A program made the position numbers and the translations under genes. From IMG/VR virus record IMGVR_UViG_2872158770_000004: a DNA stretch of 34,669 bases. One strand, 5' to 3'. The notes beneath the pieces are model-generated. The model saw only the letters and a list, made by a program, of their open reading frames with translations. It was not told the DNA's origin and ran no database searches. Shown in pieces: positions 535 to 9,962 of this stretch. The stretch is from a virus (taxonomy: Duplodnaviria; Heunggongvirae; Uroviricota; Caudoviricetes). Each line of letters begins with the position of its first letter. Position 1 is the stretch's first letter.

Positions 535-1353
535 TTAAGCAGCCATCTGATGATATTTTTCCCTGAAGGCTGCCGGGGAGATATTCCCCAGACGAGAGTG
601 ACGACGCTGACGATTGTAGAAAATCTCAATGTATTCCCGTATTACTGAGATGGCTTCATCCCGGTTATTAAAACGATAGTGGCTCAGGCTCTCATTTTTC
701 AGCGTTCCCCAGAAGCTTTCCATCGGAGCGTTGTCGTAACAGTTACCTTTACGCGACATTGATGTTTTCAGACCAGACTGCTCCTGTATGACCCGGTAAT
801 CGTATGCGCAGTACTGTGAACCTCGATCAGAGTGGTGGATTAGCCCGGCAGGTGGGCGCTGGCTCCTGAGCGCCATAAACAGGGCTTTACCTGTCAGCTC
901 TTTTGTCATGCGCTCTCCCATGGCGTAGCCGACAATTTCGCACGTATAAACATCTTTGATGCCAGCGAGGTACAACCATCCCTCCTGTGTGGCAACATAC
1001 GTCAGGTCCGCCACCCAGACCTGATTTGGTGCTGTAGGAGTGAACGTCTGGTTCAGCAGATTTGGCGCAACTGGCAGATTGTGGTTCGAGTTCGTAGTCG
1101 CTCTGAACTTGCGTTTCTGCTTACAGCGTAGCCTTAGCTCCTTACGAAGACGTGCCAGTCGGTCACGACCAACGATGATGCCATTCTCTGCCAGCTCCGT
1201 CTGGAGCCGCCGGGTTCCATATGTTTCGCGAGTGCGGATATGTGCCACCTTAATCTCCAGTTTTAGCCGCTCATCACTTTGTTTTCTGTCTGAGGGTTCA
1301 TGCTGTACCCAGTTGTAATAACCGCTCCTGGATACACCAAATACCTGACACAT
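535..1353 (-). CDS. IS600 transposase OrfB (DDE integrase-core domain)
   Basis: 272-aa ORF identical or near-identical in six copies in this window; recalled IS600 OrfB sequence. Confidence 0.93.
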   Translation of the reverse strand: MCQVFGVSRSGYYNWVQHEPSDRKQSDERLKLEIKVAHIRTRETYGTRRLQTELAENGIIVGRDRLARLRKELRLRCKQKRKFRATTNSNHNLPVAPNLLNQTFTPTAPNQVWVADLTYVATQEGWLYLAGIKDVYTCEIVGYAMGERMTKELTGKALFMALRSQRPPAGLIHHSDRGSQYCAYDYRVIQEQSGLKTSMSRKGNCYDNAPMESFWGTLKNESLSHYRFNNRDEAISVIREYIEIFYNRQRRHSRLGNISPAAFREKYHQMAA

Positions 1354-1388
1354 CGCTTCAATGGGAAATTGTTGTCGCCATTGTTCGA

Positions 1389-1691
1389 TTAACGCGTATT
1401 TTTCAGCGACTCCTGTGCAAAATACGCTGTTGCTTTTTTTAATATATCTCGCTCAAGGCGAGCTTCATTTAACGCCTTACGCAGTTGCAGAATTTCAGAT
1501 TCCAGTTCAGCCACCGTGCGGGAACCAGGAGTACCGAGCCCTTTTCTGGCGGCGGTAACCCATTGTCCTAAAGTGCCTTCAGGAAGAGATAATCGGGAAG
1601 CGCCTTCACTGATCGAAAGTTGATTTTCAAGAACCGTTCTGACAGCTTCGGCTTTGAACTCTTTAGAGTAACGTTGGGTTTTTCTGCTCAT
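1389..1691 (-). CDS. IS600 OrfA (HTH transposase subunit)
   Basis: 100-aa ORF MSRKTQRYSKEFKAEAVR..., upstream of OrfB in the 0/-1 frame arrangement typical of IS3-family elements. Confidence 0.93.
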   Translation of the reverse strand: MSRKTQRYSKEFKAEAVRTVLENQLSISEGASRLSLPEGTLGQWVTAARKGLGTPGSRTVAELESEILQLRKALNEARLERDILKKATAYFAQESLKNTR

Positions 1692-2720: not shown

Positions 2721-2895
2721 CGCATCACCTCTGGCAGGCGCCAATGTTAGGCTGAAATTGACGCCCGATGTTGATTATTAATAATCAGCTATGAAGTTTT
2801 AATTTAGACTGGCCCCCTGAATCTCCAGACAACCAGTATCACTTAAATAAGTGATAGTCTTAATACTAGTTTTTAGACTAGTCATTGGAGTACAG

Positions 2896-3261
2896 ATGAT
2901 TGATGTCTTAGGGCCGGAGAAACGCAGACGGCGTACCACACAGGAAAAGATCGCAATTGTTCAGCAGAGCTTTGAACCGGGGATGACGGTCTCCCTCGTT
3001 GCCCGGCAACATGGTGTAGCAGCCAGCCAGTTATTTCTCTGGCGTAAGCAATACCAGGAAGGAAGTCTTACTGCTGTCGCCGCCGGAGAACAGGTTGTTC
3101 CTGCCTCTGAACTTGCTGCCGCCATGAAGCAGATTAAAGAACTCCAGCGCCTGCTCGGCAAGAAAACGATGGAAAATGAACTCCTCAAAGAAGCCGTTGA
3201 ATATGGACGGGCAAAAAAGTGGATAGCGCACGCGCCCTTATTGCCCGGGGATGGGGAGTAA
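2896..3261 (+). CDS. insC: IS2 InsC (OrfA)
   Basis: [29 protein letters not shown]...; start ATG at 2896 with GGAG upstream, inside track ORF 2851..3261. Confidence 0.9.
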
Positions 3262-4124
3262 GCTTAGTCAGCCGTTGTCTCCGGGTGTCGCGTGCGCAGT
3301 TGCACGTCATTCTCAGACGAACCGATGACTGGATGGATGGCCGCCGCAGTCGTCACACTGATGATACGGATGTGCTTCTCCGTATACACCATGTTATCGG
3401 AGAGCTGCCCACGTATGGTTATCGTCGGGTATGGGCGCTGCTTCGCAGACAGGCAGAACTTGATGGTATGCCTGCGATCAATGCCAAACGTGTTTACCGG
3501 ATCATGCGCCAGAATGCGCTGTTGCTTGAGCGAAAACCTGCTGTACCGCCATCGAAACGGGCACATACAGGCAGAGTGGCCGTGAAAGAAAGCAATCAGC
3601 GATGGTGCTCTGACGGGTTCGAGTTCTGCTGTGATAACGGAGAGAGACTGCGTGTCACGTTCGCGCTGGACTGCTGTGATCGTGAGGCACTGCACTGGGC
3701 GGTGACTACCGGCGGCTTCAACAGTGAAACAGTACAGGACGTCATGCTGGGAGCGGTGGAACGCCGCTTCGGCAACGATCTTCCGTCGTCTCCAGTGGAG
3801 TGGCTGACGGATAATGGTTCATGCTACCGGGCTAATGAAACACGCCAGTTCGCCCGGATGTTGGGACTTGAACCGAAGAACACGGCGGTGCGGAGTCCGG
3901 AGAGTAACGGAATAGCAGAGAGCTTCGTGAAAACGATAAAGCGTGACTACATCAGTATCATGCCCAAACCAGACGGGTTAACGGCAGCAAAGAACCTTGC
4001 AGAGGCGTTCGAGCATTATAACGAATGGCATCCGCATAGTGCGCTGGGTTATCGCTCGCCACGGGAATATCTGCGGCAGCGGGCTTGTAATGGGTTAAGT
4101 GATAACAGATGTCTGGAAATATAG
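3219..4124 (+). CDS. insD: IS2 InsD (OrfB, DDE transposase; normally made as an InsCD frameshift fusion)
   Basis: 301-aa ORF from the track, overlapping insC in the -1 frame. Confidence 0.9.
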
Positions 4125-4155
4125 GGGCAAATCCATAATTTGAATACAATGCAAT

Positions 4156-4344
4156 TCACGAGGACTGAAGTTTCTCGCAATTAAAATTTATCAGTTTTAC
4201 TTTCTGCTCTCTGGAAACGCCTGCTTCTTTTTCCCCTGAGAGCATTTTTTCGCATTCTGATTTCGTTAGTTTTGTCTTTGAGTATCTTGTCCAGCTGGCA
4301 GGAGAACCACCTTCCTTTTCAATAGTGGCTGTAATTTTATACAT
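4156..4344 (-). CDS. Hypothetical small phage protein (62 aa)
   Basis: ATG at 4344 preceded by GGAGG with a 5-nt spacer; MYKITATIEKEGG...; inside track ORF 4156..4368. Confidence 0.5.
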   Translation of the reverse strand: MYKITATIEKEGGSPASWTRYSKTKLTKSECEKMLSGEKEAGVSREQKVKLINFNCEKLQSS

Positions 4345-4394
4345 GAACACCTCCATTAATATTTTCAAAAACCGTGTCCAAAATGCACTTGGTT

Positions 4395-5492
4395 TTACAC
4401 CGGAATATTCTCATCGTATCCTGCTTGTTGCGTTTCGTTTTGTGTTTGTGGATCCGGGAATGCATATTCAACGCCTTCCAGTTCAATCCATAGTGCATTA
4501 CGACCAGCTTTGATTGTCGGCCAGTCCATACCTTTGATTCTTTCCCATGAGCGGGAGGTGAATGTTTTTTCCAGCAAATCAGCTTTTGCGCGTTTGGCGT
4601 CGTTACTGGTGCCCCCATGGTGCTTGTTGAACAACTCGATAATTTCATCAAGTGCGATTTCTTTTGCACGCTTTTCTTTTAGCCATGTCGGTGTACCGTC
4701 GTTGGCAAATAATTCACTGTTATCCCGTGAGGTATCGATGCCGAGGTGTTCACCTCCCAGGTTAAGAAACTCGATATGAGGAAGAAAGTTTTTAAATGTT
4801 GGGTTTGAAAATACCTGTCCATCAATACGGGTGGAGCGATCTTTTAGTATTCTGGCGGTGCGCCACACCTGACCGGTTTCTATGTTCATTTGCTTCTCCA
4901 TCTGGATCAGGATGGAGGGTTCATAACCGGTTTCTGTTTCTGCTTTCATTTTTATACCGGTTTTTGCCAACTGGCGTTTGCCATCATCACCTTCGAAAAA
5001 GTCATACTCATATCCTGCACGCCCGCACATAATAATGTGCGCCTGACTGTTAACAAATCGATCGGTAAAGCGTCGCCACTCCTGTTTGAGCCACGCCCAG
5101 TCTGAAAATTCCAGTCCTCGTTTACGGTTTCGGCGTCTGGCATACTCGTCGCATAATCCGGTCCAGAAGTGACTGATGGAGTCGATGATCATTACGGAAC
5201 CGCTGCTTTCCGCTTCATTAATGGCTTCAAGCAGATCAACAAACGAGCGGGTTTTTGCCGTAAATAATTCGATATTTTCCGCATCAAAGCGGGGTTTAAC
5301 CCAGTCAGAGCCTGTTTCTGTGTCCAGAAACATTACCGGGCGGTTACCAGCTTCAATTCCCCGTTGCCGCATAAGCATTACCAGACCAATAGCCAGTTCG
5401 CTTGCTGTGTAGGTTTTGCCGTCGCCAGCAAACCCCATAATTCCTGCTTTTAGATAGGCCTGTGTGTTTATTGCTCGTTGAAAAAGCGCCAT
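4395..5492 (-). CDS. RecA-superfamily P-loop ATPase (possibly Sak4/AAA_24-like) with a C-terminal extension of about 190 aa
   Basis: 365 aa; Walker A GFAGDGKT near the N-terminus, Walker B-like VMIIDSISHF; GGAGG 10 nt upstream of the ATG. Family assignment is from motifs only. Confidence 0.6.
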   Translation of the reverse strand: MALFQRAINTQAYLKAGIMGFAGDGKTYTASELAIGLVMLMRQRGIEAGNRPVMFLDTETGSDWVKPRFDAENIELFTAKTRSFVDLLEAINEAESSGSVMIIDSISHFWTGLCDEYARRRNRKRGLEFSDWAWLKQEWRRFTDRFVNSQAHIIMCGRAGYEYDFFEGDDGKRQLAKTGIKMKAETETGYEPSILIQMEKQMNIETGQVWRTARILKDRSTRIDGQVFSNPTFKNFLPHIEFLNLGGEHLGIDTSRDNSELFANDGTPTWLKEKRAKEIALDEIIELFNKHHGGTSNDAKRAKADLLEKTFTSRSWERIKGMDWPTIKAGRNALWIELEGVEYAFPDPQTQNETQQAGYDENIPV

Positions 5493-5497
5493 AGATT

Positions 5498-5794
5498 TTA
5501 GTCCTCCAAATCAATATCAACCTGGTGGTGGGCAATGGTTTCAGCCATGTACCGGATGTGTTCTGCCATGCGCTCCTGAAACTCAACATCATCATCAAAT
5601 GCGTGGCTGATTGCCTGTTTATTGGCACCGTGGCGTTGCAAATGGTCGATGCAGAGCGATTCAAACAGGTGCTGAGGCAGACCTTTTTCCAGGTCGTCCG
5701 CCAGTTCCGTTTCTTTTTCTTCACGAACGATCTGCTGGTAGTGGCGAGCCCATGCCATTTCTTCAATACGATCAAAAATCGGGTAAGCGCTCAT
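5498..5794 (-). CDS. Hypothetical acidic phage protein (about 98 aa)
   Basis: Track ORF 5498..5797; ends 5 nt upstream of the ATPase start, same strand. Confidence 0.5.
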
Positions 5795-5956
5795 CACTGG
5801 TCACTCCAAAATTTTCAAGCTTGTTGGCAATCATCATTGCGATGTCAGGGATTGCAGGCGCATAGGCTATGCACGCAGGATTCGCACATAAACCGTAAAC
5901 CGCCGCAATCAACACCTGTTTTTTCCAGTTGAGTTCATCTTCGCCAGTTTCATTAT
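5772..5956 (-). pseudogene. 3' fragment of an unknown gene; its 5' part is lost at the IS600 copy B junction
   Basis: Track ORF 5772..6005(-) begins inside the IS600 terminus ([16 protein letters not shown] is IS-encoded); only about 61 codons are host sequence. Confidence 0.45.
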
Positions 5957-6020
5957 TGAGGTAGCCTGAGTTTAACGGACACTCCTTCCTGAAATAGAAT
6001 GGCATCAGAAGGAGCTAATA

Positions 6021-6323
6021 ATGAGCAGAAAAACCCAACGTTACTCTAAAGAGTTCAAAGCCGAAGCTGTCAGAACGGTTCCTGAAAATCAACTTTCGAT
6101 CAGTGAAGGCGCTTCCCGATTATCTCTTCCTGAAGGCACTTTAGGACAATGGGTTACCGCCGCCAGAAAAGGGCTCGGTACTCCTGGTTCCCGCACGGTG
6201 GCTGAACTGGAATCTGAAATTCTGCAACTGCGTAAGGCGTTAAATGAAGCTCGCCTTGAGCGAGATATATTAAAAAAAGCAACAGCGTATTTTGCACAGG
6301 AGTCGCTGAAAAATACGCGTTAA
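6021..6323 (+). CDS. IS600 OrfA
   Basis: Identical 100-aa product (TVPENQ variant). Confidence 0.93.
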   Translation: MSRKTQRYSKEFKAEAVRTVPENQLSISEGASRLSLPEGTLGQWVTAARKGLGTPGSRTVAELESEILQLRKALNEARLERDILKKATAYFAQESLKNTR

Positions 6324-6358
6324 TCGAACAATGGCGACAACAATTTCCCATTGAAGCG

Positions 6359-7177
6359 ATGTGTCAGGTATTTGGTGTATCCAGGAGCGGTTATTACAAC
6401 TGGGTACAGCATGAACCCTCAGACAGAAAACAAAGTGATGAGCGGCTAAAACTGGAGATTAAGGTGGCACATATCCGCACTCGCGAAACATATGGAACCC
6501 GGCGGCTCCAGACGGAGCTGGCAGAGAATGGCATCATCGTTGGTCGTGACCGACTGGCACGTCTTCGTAAGGAGCTAAGGCTACGCTGTAAGCAGAAACG
6601 CAAGTTCAGAGCGACTACGAACTCGAACCACAATCTGCCAGTTGCGCCAAATCTGCTGAACCAGACGTTCGCTCCTACAGCACCAAATCAGGTCTGGGTG
6701 GCGGACCTGACGTATGTTGCCACACAGGAGGGATGGTTGTACCTCGCTGGCATCAAAGATGTTTATACGTGCGAAATTGTCGGCTACGCCATGGGAGAGC
6801 GCATGACAAAAGAGCTGACAGGTAAAGCCCTGTTTATGGCGCTCAGGAGCCAGCGCCCACCTGCCGGGCTAATCCACCACTCTGATCGAGGTTCACAGTA
6901 CTGCGCATACGATTACCGGGTCATACAGGAGCAGTCTGGTCTGAAAACATCAATGTCGCGTAAAGGTAACTGTTACGACAACGCTCCGATGGAAAGCTTC
7001 TGGGGAACGCTGAAAAATGAGAGCCTGAGCCACTATCGTTTTAATAACCGGGATGAAGCCATCTCAGTAATACGGGAATACATTGAGATTTTCTACAATC
7101 GTCAGCGTCGTCACTCTCGTCTGGGGAATATATCCCCGGCAGCCTTCAGGGAAAAATATCATCAGATGGCTGCTTAA
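6359..7177 (+). CDS. IS600 transposase OrfB
   Basis: 272-aa ORF in the -1 frame relative to orfA. Confidence 0.93.
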   Translation: MCQVFGVSRSGYYNWVQHEPSDRKQSDERLKLEIKVAHIRTRETYGTRRLQTELAENGIIVGRDRLARLRKELRLRCKQKRKFRATTNSNHNLPVAPNLLNQTFAPTAPNQVWVADLTYVATQEGWLYLAGIKDVYTCEIVGYAMGERMTKELTGKALFMALRSQRPPAGLIHHSDRGSQYCAYDYRVIQEQSGLKTSMSRKGNCYDNAPMESFWGTLKNESLSHYRFNNRDEAISVIREYIEIFYNRQRRHSRLGNISPAAFREKYHQMAA

Positions 7178-7220
7178 AAAAAGAACAAATGGTAGTGTCC
7201 GCTATTGCCAGTACACCTCA

Positions 7221-8762
7221 GTTCGCTCCTCCGGTTCGCTGTTCTGGTGCTGTTTATCTTCAGTCTGTCGCACTTTATTTTCCGTTTTTTTGACTTCATT
7301 TGAGGAGATATGATGACCGGGAATCCATTTCGAATCATTCGGGTCGCTAATCCCTTCAACAAATTCTCCGCGAGAGGCAGCCAGTAATTTGTCTGCATCG
7401 ACAGGATTTTTGGGCGGAATGTTTTTCCGGGCTTCATGGAGTTCTGTCCGCAGTTTCTGATATTTCGCATCAACAGCATTTACCTGTGACTGAGCATCCA
7501 GCGGCTGCGTGTCCTGATGATGTTCAGTTGCATCCGGTTCCACTGTTTCAGCCGTTGCCTGTTCATCTGCCATTGCGCAAGATGGTTGCGGTTTTTCTTC
7601 ATCATCCTGTTTTCCTTCTTCTGTTACACGCTGCGGCATCGGGGCAGAGGAGCGACCGCAGGCAATATCCACGATTTCCGGATCAGGGTTGGCATGATCG
7701 GTTTCAGTCAGTACCTTGTTCAGATATTCAGTGACGTGCGCGGGGATGACCTCGATCCCAATTGGTGCTTCTTTTACGGACGCAACCACGATGGCGCGGG
7801 AATAATCCAGCCCGCCAGGCATGGTGATGAATTTGTCGCGGAAAACAGAAAAGGGCGGTTTATTTTCAGCGATAATTTCCTCAATGCGTTTAGCGTGTGC
7901 CGGATGAAGGTTATAGATGTCCAGATCCATTGAACGGGCCAGTACGCCAGTGGCTACGTCGCGCGCCAGTGACGTCAGATCGTGTACGAAACCTTCGCCG
8001 CGATCGGTGAGGTTTCCGCCGCCAGCATTAGCACCGGAAGCCGTGCGAGTGATGTGTGAAACACGATTACCCTTCATCCACTCTTTTGTCAGCAGTCCTC
8101 GATCGGTGTAGTCAGCGTTCAGGTATGCTTCGAAAAAAGCAGTTATCAGTCCCAGGCTTGAATTACCAGGATTAGGGAAAACTTTGTCAGTGTCACGAAC
8201 CAGTTTGTGGAGATCGCGAATTTCCAGCGGGTCGAGCAGGCTGGTTTTGTGGGAAACAGCCAGGGCAGTAACAGCCGGTAGTTCTTCAGCCCGAGCAATG
8301 TGTAATGCCTGGAGTCCGTCGCGTGAAACGTGCGTTACCGGTTTTTCGCTGCCGTGTTGAGCAAGCCAGCGAATGGGCAGTTCCTGACCGGAAACTGGCA
8401 GGAGCATGTTCTCCTCAATTTCTGTCATGTCTTCGCCGTTGACGTTGGTATTGTCAGTGCTGGCTGGTTTGTCCTGAACAGAGGGAGAAGATGCGATAAA
8501 TACCATTGTGATGCCATCTTCCCCGCCTTTTTCGTAACGGTTGCAGAATTCCGTATCAAACACGCCTTCTGGTGGGAGGTCACCAACAACGGGCAAATTG
8601 ACGCGAACAGGTTTTTTAAAGTCATCTTCATCGTAGCCAGCATCGTCAATCGCAACAGCACCACGGGAGATGGCAATGGATAATTTTTTCGCTTCAGCCC
8701 AGTAAAAACCGCCTTTAATACCGAGGCGTTTTCTTACTTTGTCATTTTTTGCTTCGTAATAC
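7221..8762 (-). pseudogene. Large phage protein fragment in the recE position of Rac-like prophages; N-terminus interrupted by IS600 C, C-terminus lost at IS600 B
   Basis: Track ORF 7202..8794(-), 530 aa, both ends read from IS termini. After removing IS600 C plus one TAC, the frame continues upstream to an ATG at about 10058 ([21 protein letters not shown]...) with a GAGG RBS. Long acidic low-complexity region. The RecE-like label is from synteny and composition only. Confidence 0.5.
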
Positions 8763-8805
8763 TGAGGTGTACTGGCAATAGCGGACACTACCATTTGTTC
8801 TTTTT

Positions 8806-9624
8806 TTAAGCAGCCATCTGATGATATTTTTCCCTGAAGGCTGCCGGGGAGATATTCCCCAGACGAGAGTGACGACGCTGACGATTGTAGAAAATCTCAA
8901 TGTATTCCCGTATTACTGAGATGGCTTCATCCCGGTTATTAAAACGATAGTGGCTCAGGCTCTCATTTTTCAGCGTTCCCCAGAAGCTTTCCATCGGAGC
9001 GTTGTCGTAACAGTTACCTTTACGCGACATTGATGTTTTCAGACCAGACTGCTCCTGTATGACCCGGTAATCGTATGCGCAGTACTGTGAACCTCGATCA
9101 GAGTGGTGGATTAGCCCGGCAGGTGGGCGCTGGCTCCTGAGCGCCATAAACAGGGCTTTACCTGTCAGCTCTTTTGTCATGCGCTCTCCCATGGCGTAGC
9201 CGACAATTTCGCACGTATAAACATCTTTGATGCCAGCGAGGTACAACCATCCCTCCTGTGTGGCAACATACGTCAGGTCCGCCACCCAGACCTGATTTGG
9301 TGCTGTAGGAGCGAACGTCTGGTTCAGCAGATTTGGCGCAACTGGCAGATTGTGGTTCGAGTTCGTAGTCGCTCTGAACTTGCGTTTCTGCTTACAGCGT
9401 AGCCTTAGCTCCTTACGAAGACGTGCCAGTCGGTCACGACCAACGATGATGCCATTCTCTGCCAGCTCCGTCTGGAGCCGCCGGGTTCCATATGTTTCGC
9501 GAGTGCGGATATGTGCCACCTTAATCTCCAGTTTTAGCCGCTCATCACTTTGTTTTCTGTCTGAGGGTTCATGCTGTACCCAGTTGTAATAACCGCTCCT
9601 GGATACACCAAATACCTGACACAT
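8806..9624 (-). CDS. IS600 transposase OrfB
   Basis: 272-aa ORF, identical family. Confidence 0.93.
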
Positions 9625-9659
9625 CGCTTCAATGGGAAATTGTTGTCGCCATTGTTCGA

Positions 9660-9962
9660 TTAACGCGTATTTTTCAGCGACTCCTGTGCAAAATACGCTG
9701 TTGCTTTTTTTAATATATCTCGCTCAAGGCGAGCTTCATTTAACGCCTTACGCAGTTGCAGAATTTCAGATTCCAGTTCAGCCACCGTGCGGGAACCAGG
9801 AGTACCGAGCCCTTTTCTGGCGGCGGTAACCCATTGTCCTAAAGTGCCTTCAGGAAGAGATAATCGGGAAGCGCCTTCACTGATCGAAAGTTGATTTTCA
9901 GGAACCGTTCTGACAGCTTCGGCTTTGAACTCTTTAGAGTAACGTTGGGTTTTTCTGCTCAT
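9660..9962 (-). CDS. IS600 OrfA
   Basis: 100-aa ORF. Confidence 0.93.
   Translation of the reverse strand: MSRKTQRYSKEFKAEAVRTVPENQLSISEGASRLSLPEGTLGQWVTAARKGLGTPGSRTVAELESEILQLRKALNEARLERDILKKATAYFAQESLKNTR

What the first reader, a model, noticed from the sequence alone, without database searches (positions are those of the whole stretch)
4156..5794. RecA-like ATPase with a 190-aa C-terminal extension, plus two small partner genes, in the recombination-module position
Between xis and the recE-position gene, where lambdoid phages usually carry bet/exo or recT, there is a 365-aa protein with Walker A (GFAGDGKT) and a RecA-type Walker B (MIIDSISHF) in its first ~170 aa, and an uncharacterised C-terminal half. 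It is flanked by a 62-aa and a ~98-aa acidic ORF, all co-oriented with short gaps and good RBSs. A Sak4-like core fused to an extra domain is not something I can assign a function to; it could be a recombination protein or an accessory (for example anti-host or defence) module.
Basis: partly seen in the sequence, partly recalled or inferred. Interest (0 to 1): 0.6.

Follow-up and report, generated by a model that had tools for sequence, protein, structure and literature searches.

The report
Long RecA-like phage recombinase beside Gam
In this decayed Rac-like prophage, the usual recombination genes have been replaced by lambda Gam and a 365-residue RecA/Sak4-like ATPase with its own C-terminal helical domain; the ATPase belongs to a large, highly conserved, untested family and is probably the phage's recombinase.

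Summary
The three ORFs are real, and two of them are already known. The "98-aa acidic ORF" (5498-5794, -) is lambda Gam (Pfam E=8e-56). The "62-aa ORF" (4156-4344, -) is RcbA/YdaC of the Rac backbone, 92% identical to K-12, with the RalA antitoxin sRNA on the opposite strand.

The protein sits where Stx phage 75/02 has bet-exo and where K-12 Rac has recT, ralR and the recE nuclease half. In the complete phage phiES15, gam plus this gene is the only recombinase candidate. The family is large (2047 hits) and 60-75% identical from enterobacteria to Burkholderiales. It lies between repressor and integrase, sometimes directly followed by ssb.

Best reading: a Sak4-like, ATP-dependent recombinase in a long form. 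It is a new variant of a known kind, biochemically untested, and of moderate interest.

The parts
4395..5492 (-). 365-aa RecA-fold ATPase: AAA_24 / Sak4-like core plus a family-specific C-terminal domain. It is the candidate phage recombinase.
5412..5435 (-). Walker A, GFAGDGKT (residues 20-27).
   Evidence: G20, F21, A22, G23, G25, K26 and T27 are invariant in 30 homologues. G.{4}GK[ST] is present in 88 of 92 diverse representatives.
5316..5324 (-). D57-T58-E59, the putative catalytic glutamate after strand 2. By my recollection of those sequences it corresponds to RecA IDAEH and Rad51 IDTEG.
   Evidence: All three residues are invariant. D[TSA]E is present in 80 of 88 diverse representatives. 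The assignment rests on motif analogy with RecA/Rad51 from general knowledge.
5178..5195 (-). RecA-type Walker B, VMIIDS (residues 100-105).
   Evidence: D104 and S105 are invariant. The pattern hhhD[ST] is present in 72 of 88 diverse representatives.
4923..4964 (-). Residues 177-190, KTGIKMKAETETGY. The segment is nearly invariant but predicted disordered; it is the candidate L2-like DNA-binding loop.
   Evidence: pLDDT is below 50 for residues 177-188, yet T178, G179, K181, M182, E185, E187 and T188 are invariant. Assigning it as a DNA loop is an inference.
5472..5483 (-). N-terminal F4-Q-R-A7, a possible Rad51-type FxxA polymerisation motif.
   Evidence: F4 is invariant and A7 is at least 90% conserved in A1. 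In diverse representatives the pattern is [FL]-x-x-A, with a strict FxxA in 44 of 88. The function is inferred only.
4458..4688 (-). C-terminal four-helix domain, residues 269-345, specific to this family.
4398..4457 (-). Acidic, disordered C-terminal tail (residues 346-365) ending in YDENIPV, which resembles an SSB tail.
   Evidence: pLDDT is below 50 for residues 350-365. The motif [DE][DE][IVLM]P occurs in the last 20 residues of 34 of 209 family members, against 8 of 3842 internal windows. Some members end in DADIPF, DPIPF or GGIPF. The SSB next to the Achromobacter homologue ends in DDDIPF.
5498..5794 (-). Lambda-type Gam, the host-nuclease (RecBCD) inhibitor, 98 aa. It lies immediately upstream of the ATPase gene and is probably co-translated with it.
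   Evidence: PF06064 E=8e-56 over profile positions 1-97 of 98. phrog_259 E=5.5e-54. PGAP names it 'host-nuclease inhibitor Gam family protein'. The same gam-to-ATPase order is found in phiES15, where the two genes overlap.
4156..4344 (-). rcbA/ydaC (DUF1187), 62 aa. It is a Rac backbone gene, not part of the swapped module.
   Evidence: PF06688 E=2e-36. 92% identical to K-12 RcbA. Nucleotide homology to K-12 Rac covers window 4136-4367.
4160..4338 (+). RalA antitoxin sRNA, antisense to rcbA. It is an orphan because ralR is absent.
   Evidence: Rfam RF02694 scores 207 bits against a gathering score of 170, full length. tblastn with RalR finds nothing in the window.
5772..6005 (-). 3' piece of the recE-N-terminal-like gene. 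It ends at about position 622 of the 883-position phrog_607 profile, and the tblastn match to K-12 RecE stops at residue 498, so no RecE nuclease domain is encoded.
   Evidence: phrog_607 profile positions 562-622 of 883. In the uninterrupted 646-aa copy (L031), phrog_607 positions 1-622 of 883 are covered. PGAP marks the gene 'missing C-terminus'.
7202..8794 (-). 5' piece of the same recE-N-terminal-like gene. An IS600-like insertion (ORFs at 6021-7177) separates it from the 3' piece.
   Evidence: NF007259 exodeoxyribonuclease VIII, profile positions 8-524 of 877, scoring below the cut-off. tblastn with K-12 RecE matches residues 50-498 only. The IS transposase ORFs are listed.

Best explanation
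The 365-aa protein is the recombinase of this lambdoid/Rac-like phage. It is a long-form relative of the Sak4 class of RecA-fold, ATP-dependent single-strand annealing proteins.

Proposed mechanism:
1. It is transcribed in the early-left operon directly after gam. This is inferred from co-orientation, the 5-nt gap here, and the overlapping stop/start in phiES15.
2. Gam blocks RecBCD, so linear phage DNA ends survive. This is established for lambda Gam; the family assignment is shown here.
3. The ATPase binds ATP through Walker A, the DTE glutamate and Walker B. It oligomerises on ssDNA, using an N-terminal [F/L]xxA peptide and basic or invariant loops, and pairs complementary strands. This step is inferred.
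4. The family-specific C-terminal helical domain and the acidic, SSB-like tail either regulate DNA binding or dock partners such as SSB or the host proteins that bind SSB. They may stand in for the dedicated SSB and exonuclease partners found in classical modules. This step is speculative.
5. No phage exonuclease is encoded nearby, so resection would be left to host nucleases or to replication-fork ssDNA. This step is inferred.
For: Family and fold:
- PF13479 (the Pfam family used in the literature for Sak4; PMC8093625) scores 52.5 bits. That is higher than the type protein HK620 Sak4, which scores 30 bits.
- phrog_124 'Sak4-like ssDNA annealing protein' gives E=9e-9.
- The catalytic motifs are invariant.

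Position:
- It sits immediately after gam, where Stx phage 75/02 has bet and exo. Together with gam, it replaces recT, ralR and the recE nuclease half of K-12 Rac.
- The window contains no Bet, Exo, RecT, RecE nuclease domain or HK620-type Sak4 or SSB.
- The complete, inducible phage phiES15 has kil-gam-ATPase and no other annotated recombinase among its 52 CDS.

Wider context:
- In Achromobacter prophages the gene is followed directly by a canonical ssb. This is the pairing reported for Sak4 (PMC5928155).
- In 45 non-redundant loci the neighbours are repressors, integrases, Gam, SSB, NinB/Orf, RusA and endonuclease VII, and no other recombinase recurs.
- A nuclease-inhibitor gene upstream of sak4 has a precedent: Mu-gam-like genes in Firmicutes phages (PMC8093625).
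- Conservation is 60-75% identity between enterobacterial and Burkholderiales or Pseudomonas copies, which implies strong functional constraint.
Against: - No biochemical or genetic data exist for any member, and no paper in the searched library addresses the protein.
- The direct profile-to-sequence comparison with HK620 Sak4 is not significant (hhalign probability 0.4%). A profile search of PDB sequences finds nothing, not even Sak4 of phage 52A.
- The protein breaks the 'core-only, under 290 aa' criterion used to define Sak4 (PMC2896510).
- Only 3 of 45 non-redundant loci have an adjacent SSB, against about 80% reported for Sak4.
- No exonuclease partner is evident.
- The prophage in the window is riddled with IS elements, so the gene may not be in use here.
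Confidence: 0.6

Rival explanations
1. It is a true strand-exchange recombinase, analogous to RecA, UvsX or Rad51, rather than a mere annealase. [quoted passage not shown]
For: - There is a conserved appended domain with invariant basic residues K300, R314, R318 and R331.
- An acidic C-terminal tail is also present in E. coli RecA (general knowledge).
- An N-terminal F4-x-x-A7 motif is conserved.
- Lopes et al. attribute Sak4's limitations to the missing secondary DNA-binding domain (PMC2896510).
- Sequence conservation is at a level comparable to RecA.
Against: - There is no Pfam RecA or Rad51 hit.
- HK620 Sak4, the closest tested relative, does not perform strand exchange (PMC5928155).
- The FxxA reading rests on four residues.
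Confidence: 0.2
2. It is a replication or repair motor, such as a DnaB/RepA/RadA-like helicase or a fork-remodelling ATPase. It would then have no recombinase function, and its position next to gam would be incidental mosaicism.
For: - There is a weak AAA_25 hit (E=0.024).
- Distant homologues are annotated 'DNA helicase' in Pseudomonas phage Persinger and Xanthomonas phage FoX3.
- A mycobacteriophage AAA_24 protein is reported as a DNA-dependent ATPase whose role is only putative (PMC10194130).
Against: - It has no DnaB N-terminal domain, primase or Lon-like domain.
- phiES15 has an O/P-type replication module that, from general knowledge of lambda O/P, recruits host DnaB.
- The gene lies in the leftward recombination/integration operon rather than with the replication genes.
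Confidence: 0.12
3. It is an accessory 'moron': an anti-defence or superinfection-exclusion ATPase carried in the variable region near int.
For: - It is rare in E. coli, at 10 of 5426 complete genomes.
- It sits in a mosaic, swapped segment.
- Many of its neighbours are ORFans.
- One distant N-terminal match is annotated 'DarB-like antirestriction protein'.
Against: - There are no PADLOC hits.
- It is very highly conserved across bacterial classes, unlike typical fast-evolving accessory genes.
- Its position after gam or before ssb is fixed.
- All its catalytic RecA motifs are intact.
Confidence: 0.06

Closest known systems
Sak4 (HK620 HkaL, lactococcal phi31 ORF245, staphylococcal phage 52A Sak4; Pfam AAA_24)
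   Same: - Same Pfam family, above threshold.
- Walker A, catalytic Glu and Walker B are present.
- It sits in a temperate-phage recombination module.
- Some members are directly followed by ssb.
- A nuclease inhibitor lies upstream, which has a precedent in PMC8093625.
   Different: - 365 aa against about 220-245 aa. It carries a conserved 77-residue helical domain and an acidic tail that Sak4 lacks, whereas Sak4 was defined as core-only and under 290 aa (PMC2896510).
- The direct sequence match to HK620 Sak4 is not significant.
- An adjacent SSB is found in only about 7% of loci.
- It falls in a separate PHROG (1366, unknown function) rather than phrog_124.
Lambda Red module (Gam-Bet-Exo)
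   Same: Same operon position and the same Gam protein. The gene order recE-N-like, gam, X is shared with Stx phage 75/02, where X is bet-exo.
   Different: Bet (Rad52-like) and Exo are both absent. A single RecA-fold ATPase takes their place, and no exonuclease is encoded.
Rac RecET module
   Same: Same prophage backbone and the same attachment site next to ttcA in the intact E. coli copy. The int, xis, rcbA and recE N-terminal sequences are 93-97% identical to K-12.
   Different: recT, ralR and the RecE nuclease domain are missing.
RecA / UvsX / Rad51
   Same: Same core fold and catalytic motifs. All have a domain appended to the core and an acidic C-terminus. A [F/L]xxA peptide precedes the core here, as in Rad51/RadA.
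Redbeta C-terminal domain-like modules reported on some bacterial Sak4, RecT and Erf proteins (PMC8093625)
   Same: The idea is the same: an extra C-terminal helical domain on an annealase that could bind SSB or an exonuclease.

Membership tests
Sak4 (core-only RecA-like SSAP) | Match to Pfam AAA_24 (PF13479) above the gathering score | tested here: met
   52.5 bits against a cut-off of 27, E=7.5e-14, residues 14-187. HK620 Sak4 itself scores 30 bits.
Sak4 (core-only RecA-like SSAP) | RecA/Rad51 fold with Walker A, catalytic Glu and Walker B | tested here: met
Sak4 (core-only RecA-like SSAP) | Minimal size: no domain beyond the ATPase core, under 290 aa (criterion of Lopes et al. 2010, PMC2896510) | tested here: not met
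   The protein is 365 aa. A conserved helical domain (269-345) and a tail follow the core.
Sak4 (core-only RecA-like SSAP) | Cognate ssb gene adjacent (about 80% of sak4 genes, PMC5928155) | tested here: not met
   There is no SSB in the window. Pfam SSB is found within two genes downstream in 3 of 45 non-redundant loci. It is present in Achromobacter prophages.
Sak4 (core-only RecA-like SSAP) | Detectable sequence homology to a tested Sak4 | tested here: inconclusive
   phrog_124 gives E=9e-9. However, hhalign of the family profile against HK620 Sak4 gives probability 0.4%, and no PDB Sak4 hit is found by hmmsearch.
Sak4 (core-only RecA-like SSAP) | ATP-dependent ssDNA binding and annealing; recombineering activity | not testable with these tools
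   Requires experiments.
RecA/UvsX/Rad51 strand-exchange recombinases | Family HMM match (Pfam RecA or Rad51) | tested here: not met
   Only AAA_24 and a weak AAA_25 hit are returned at E<=0.1.
RecA/UvsX/Rad51 strand-exchange recombinases | Secondary DNA-binding domain homologous to the RecA C-terminal domain or the Rad51 N-terminal domain | tested here: not met
RecA/UvsX/Rad51 strand-exchange recombinases | Polymerisation motif (FxxA) preceding the core | tested here: inconclusive
   F4-x-x-A7 is conserved. In diverse representatives the pattern is [FL]xxA, with a strict FxxA in 44 of 88. Its function is untested.
DnaB-type replicative helicases | DnaB N-terminal domain plus DnaB_C family match | tested here: not met
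Lambda Red module | Gam, Bet and Exo all present | tested here: not met
   Gam is present. Bet and Exo are absent from the window by tblastn.
Known anti-phage defence systems (PADLOC-DB 2.0) | Match to any defence protein model | tested here: not met
   Zero hits for the ATPase, Gam and RcbA at E<=0.01.

The most novel reading that the evidence does not exclude
The family is a self-contained, single-polypeptide recombination function. A RecA-core pairing engine would carry its own partner-docking module: the novel C-terminal helical domain plus an SSB-C-terminus-like acidic tail (…D-E/D-I-P-x). That module would plug into the host SSB interactome (nucleases, helicases, SSB itself). With Gam alone, the protein would then replace both Bet and Exo, and it might perform genuine strand invasion. 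It could be a portable recombineering tool across Proteobacteria.
Probability: 0.15. Interest if true: 0.7.

Novelty: new variant of a known kind. Interest (0 to 1): 0.42.

Why it matters
Phage recombinases drive genome mosaicism, are the working parts of recombineering tools, and are frequent triggers or targets of anti-phage defence (PMC11846896, PMC8093625).

This long form was excluded by design from the original Sak4 census, which accepted only proteins under 290 aa. It is named only 'AAA family ATPase' or 'unknown function' in the current annotation resources checked here. Yet it is abundant: 2047 hits, and 656 representative clusters that carry the C-domain. It is conserved at a level comparable to RecA across Gamma- and Betaproteobacteria.

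If it is a recombinase that needs neither a dedicated exonuclease nor a cognate SSB, it would extend the known architectures of RecA-fold annealases. It would also offer a compact gam-plus-one-gene system to test for recombineering in Pseudomonas, Achromobacter and the Burkholderiales.

If it turns out to be only a Sak4 with a decorative tail, the finding is a routine annotation improvement.

Tried and rejected
1. Identifying the C-terminal domain. All of these were negative, so the domain stays unassigned:
- Pfam on residues 228-365 gave nothing.
- hmmsearch of the C-domain profile against all PDB sequences gave nothing at E<=10.
- Foldseek against BFVD gave a best E of 0.66.

3. 'Rosetta-stone' fusions. 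Ten longer family members (500-812 aa) showed no extra Pfam domain.

4. An obligate partner gene. A census of 45 non-redundant loci at positions +/-1-2 (Pfam and PHROGs) and +/-3-6 (PHROGs) found no invariant neighbour. Gam occurred in 4 and SSB in 3.

5. A defence role. PADLOC was negative.

6. A direct sequence link to solved RecA, Rad51 or Sak4 structures. hmmsearch of the full-length profile against PDB sequences gave 0 hits at E<=1.

7. The two small ORFs as novel partners. Rejected: they are Gam and RcbA.

8. Promoter and terminator scan of 4000-6100. Counts were at the shuffle expectation and uninformative.

Full report
**1. What is in the sequence**

Coordinates 4156-5794 hold three co-oriented minus-strand genes:
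- a 62-aa ORF (4156-4344; ATG preceded by GGAGG);
- a 365-aa ORF (4395-5492; ATG 8 nt after GGAGGA);
- a 98-aa ORF (5498-5794).

Only 5 nt separate the stop of the 98-aa gene from the start of the 365-aa gene. Their key residues are invariant in a 30-sequence alignment (A1).

**2. The two small ORFs are known genes**

The 98-aa acidic protein is lambda-type Gam. It matches PF06064 at E=8e-56 over profile positions 1-97 of 98 and phrog_259 at E=5.5e-54. PGAP calls it 'host-nuclease inhibitor Gam family protein'.

The 62-aa protein is DUF1187 (PF06688, E=2e-36) and is 92% identical to K-12 Rac RcbA/YdaC. Rfam finds the complete RalA antitoxin sRNA on its opposite strand (4160-4338, 207 bits), just as in K-12 Rac.

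Nucleotide homology to K-12 Rac covers int/xis (1753-2805), rcbA (4136-4367) and recE codons of about 102-478 (7325-8453). rcbA is therefore backbone. The segment swapped relative to Rac lies between about 4368 and 7324. It has replaced ralR, recT and the nuclease half of recE with the ATPase gene, gam, and a variant recE-N tail similar to that of Stx phage 75/02.

The recE-like gene encodes only the N-terminal part. In the uninterrupted 646-aa copy it covers phrog_607 positions 1-622 of 883, and PGAP marks it 'missing C-terminus'. In the window it is additionally split by an IS600-like element (ORFs at 6021-7177).

**3. The 365-aa protein**

Family matches:
- Pfam AAA_24: 52.5 bits against a cut-off of 27, residues 14-187.
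- phrog_1366 (unknown function): E=1e-79, residues 2-304; phrog_124 'Sak4-like ssDNA annealing protein': E=9e-9.
- No NCBIfam model matches, and PGAP names it 'AAA family ATPase'.

The AF2 model has mean pLDDT 82. It shows a RecA-like alpha/beta core extending to about residue 240, a linker, four helices (269-292, 297-311, 316-320, 324-339) and a disordered tail.

Sequence motifs fit the RecA/Rad51 catalytic pattern (analogy from general knowledge):
- LDTETG, with invariant D57-T58-E59, corresponds to RecA IDAEH and Rad51 IDTEG.
- IIDS, with invariant D104-S105, is the RecA-type Walker B.
- Residues 177-190 are nearly invariant yet have pLDDT below 50. This is the behaviour expected of an L2-type DNA-binding loop.
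- An N-terminal [F/L]-x-x-A peptide is conserved even in the 50%-identity cluster representatives. It recalls the Rad51 polymerisation motif, but that reading is speculative.

**4. The extension**

The true extension is about 120 residues, not 190. The helical domain (269-345) has no match by any method tried:
- no Pfam match;
- no PDB sequence match at E<=10;

A profile of residues 228-365, searched against 1.84 billion representatives, found 656 clusters at E<=1e-3. Among the listed hits, the proteins of roughly 350-570 aa carry the domain at about residues 220-370, downstream of the ATPase core; shorter hits look like gene fragments. Nine of ten longer members tested retain at least a weak AAA_24 core match, and none shows a meaningful additional Pfam domain. 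The domain is therefore specific to this family.

The tail is acidic and ends in …YDENIPV. The motif [DE][DE][IVLM]P occurs in the last 20 residues of 34 of 209 family members, against 8 of 3842 internal windows. Several distant members end in DADIPF, DPIPF or GGIPF, like the canonical SSB tip. The Achromobacter phage SSB next to a homologue ends in DDDIPF. The motif is enriched but patchy: 30 of 117 close relatives have it, against 4 of 92 diverse representatives.

A published remark says that some bacterial Sak4 proteins carry a Redbeta-CTD-like C-terminal domain (PMC8093625). This could not be confirmed for the present domain.

**5. Distribution and context**

The family has 2047 hits at E<=1e-5. 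Full-length relatives are 60-75% identical in Pseudomonas, Achromobacter, Pelomonas/Roseateles, Candidimonas and Aquabacterium. More distant full-length copies occur in Planctomycetota, Chloroflexota and Bacteroidota contigs.

Only 10 of 5426 complete E. coli genomes carry the module. The intact E. coli copy is a Rac-type prophage next to ttcA.

The only cultured phage with a close homologue (84%) is the UV-induced Cronobacter phage phiES15. Its order there is kil-gam-ATPase-DUF7740-dam-xis-int, with gam and the ATPase gene overlapping. None of its 52 annotated CDS is another recombinase or exonuclease.

Stx phage 75/02 shows recE-N-like, gam, bet, exo, so the ATPase occupies the bet-exo slot. 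In Achromobacter prophages the gene is followed immediately by a canonical ssb.

A census of 45 non-redundant loci gave these neighbours: CI-like repressors, integrases and excisionases, HNH endonucleases, Gam (4), SSB (3), NinB/Orf (3), endonuclease VII (2), RusA (1) and many ORFans. No recurrent Rad52-like, RecT or Erf recombinase and no recurrent exonuclease was found.

In the window, tblastn finds no RecT, Bet, Exo, RecE nuclease domain, RalR, or HK620-type Sak4 or SSB. PADLOC gives no defence-system hit.

**6. Interpretation**

The best-supported reading (confidence about 0.6) is that this is the phage's recombinase, a long-form Sak4-like, ATP-dependent ssDNA pairing protein co-expressed with Gam.

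- Shown: family, fold, intact catalytic motifs, slot equivalence with bet-exo and recT, sole-candidate status in phiES15, and occasional ssb adjacency.
- Inferred: ssDNA binding through the invariant disordered loop, oligomerisation through the N-terminal peptide, and reliance on host nucleases.
- Speculative: the C-domain and SSB-like tail acting as a docking or autoregulatory module.

Rivals:
- A genuine strand-exchange enzyme (0.2). This is compatible with the appended domain and the FxxA-like motif, but no homology to the RecA or Rad51 accessory domains was found.
- A helicase-like motor (0.12).
- An accessory or anti-defence ATPase (0.06).

**7. Comparison with known families**

The protein meets the Pfam and fold criteria for Sak4. 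It fails the 'core-only, under 290 aa' criterion with which Sak4 was defined (PMC2896510), and it lacks the typical adjacent SSB in most loci. Direct similarity to HK620 Sak4 is not significant.

I therefore describe it as working like a Sak4/RecA-family recombinase, and as a distinct long subfamily (phrog_1366) rather than a bona fide Sak4.

The two library searches turned up no paper on this subfamily or on phiES15 gp07.

**8. Verdict**

The feature is real. The two 'partner genes' are ordinary: Gam, and RcbA with RalA on the opposite strand. The central gene is an uncharacterised but widespread variant of a known kind of phage recombinase, carrying a novel C-terminal domain. Interest is moderate (0.42). 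The more novel reading, a self-contained recombinase with a built-in SSB-tail mimic, is not excluded, and I put it at about 0.15.

Noticed in passing
window 4160-4338 (+): A complete RalA antitoxin sRNA (Rfam RF02694, 207 bits) lies antisense to rcbA. Its toxin gene ralR is absent from the window, having been replaced by the ATPase/gam segment, so this is an orphan type I antitoxin.
   Followed up: partly
window 5772-6005 and 7202-8794 (-); L031 1781-3718; L003 3537-5585: A 'RecE' gene that encodes only the N-terminal ~590-680 residues, with no nuclease domain, recurs upstream of gam in this prophage, in intact E. coli copies and in Stx phage 75/02. It may be an independent gene of unknown function rather than a pseudogene, although PGAP flags it as truncated.
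   Followed up: partly
window 535-1691, 6021-7177, 8806-9962, 17810-18966, 31448-32604; also 2851-4124: At least five copies of the same IS3-family element (identical 272-aa and 100-aa ORF pairs, IS600-like) and an IS2-like element between xis and rcbA. They truncate int and split the recE-like gene, so the prophage is heavily decayed in a Shigella-like manner.
   Followed up: no
window 22269-22443 (+), 11511-11598 (-), 11623-11699 (-), 25419-25726 (+): Other Rfam hits above gathering score: the sok antitoxin RNA, the C4 antisense RNA, the isrK sRNA, and a cluster of four tRNA genes.
   Followed up: no
family-wide (P0014, P0015, P0023 and others): Identity of 60-75% between enterobacterial and Burkholderiales or Pseudomonas prophage copies is unusually high for a phage early protein, roughly comparable to RecA.
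   Followed up: partly
L002 7098-7406 (phiES15 gp06); L004 2649-3017: The gene just downstream of the ATPase varies. In phiES15 it is a DUF7740 protein, and in a Pseudomonas prophage it is a SutA-RBD/HTH protein. DNA methyltransferases often follow.
   Followed up: no
P0122, P0137, P0146, P0246, P0247, P0259: Some family members are 500-812 aa long, with further N- or C-terminal sequence that has no meaningful Pfam match (one marginal RBR hit in P0247).
   Followed up: partly
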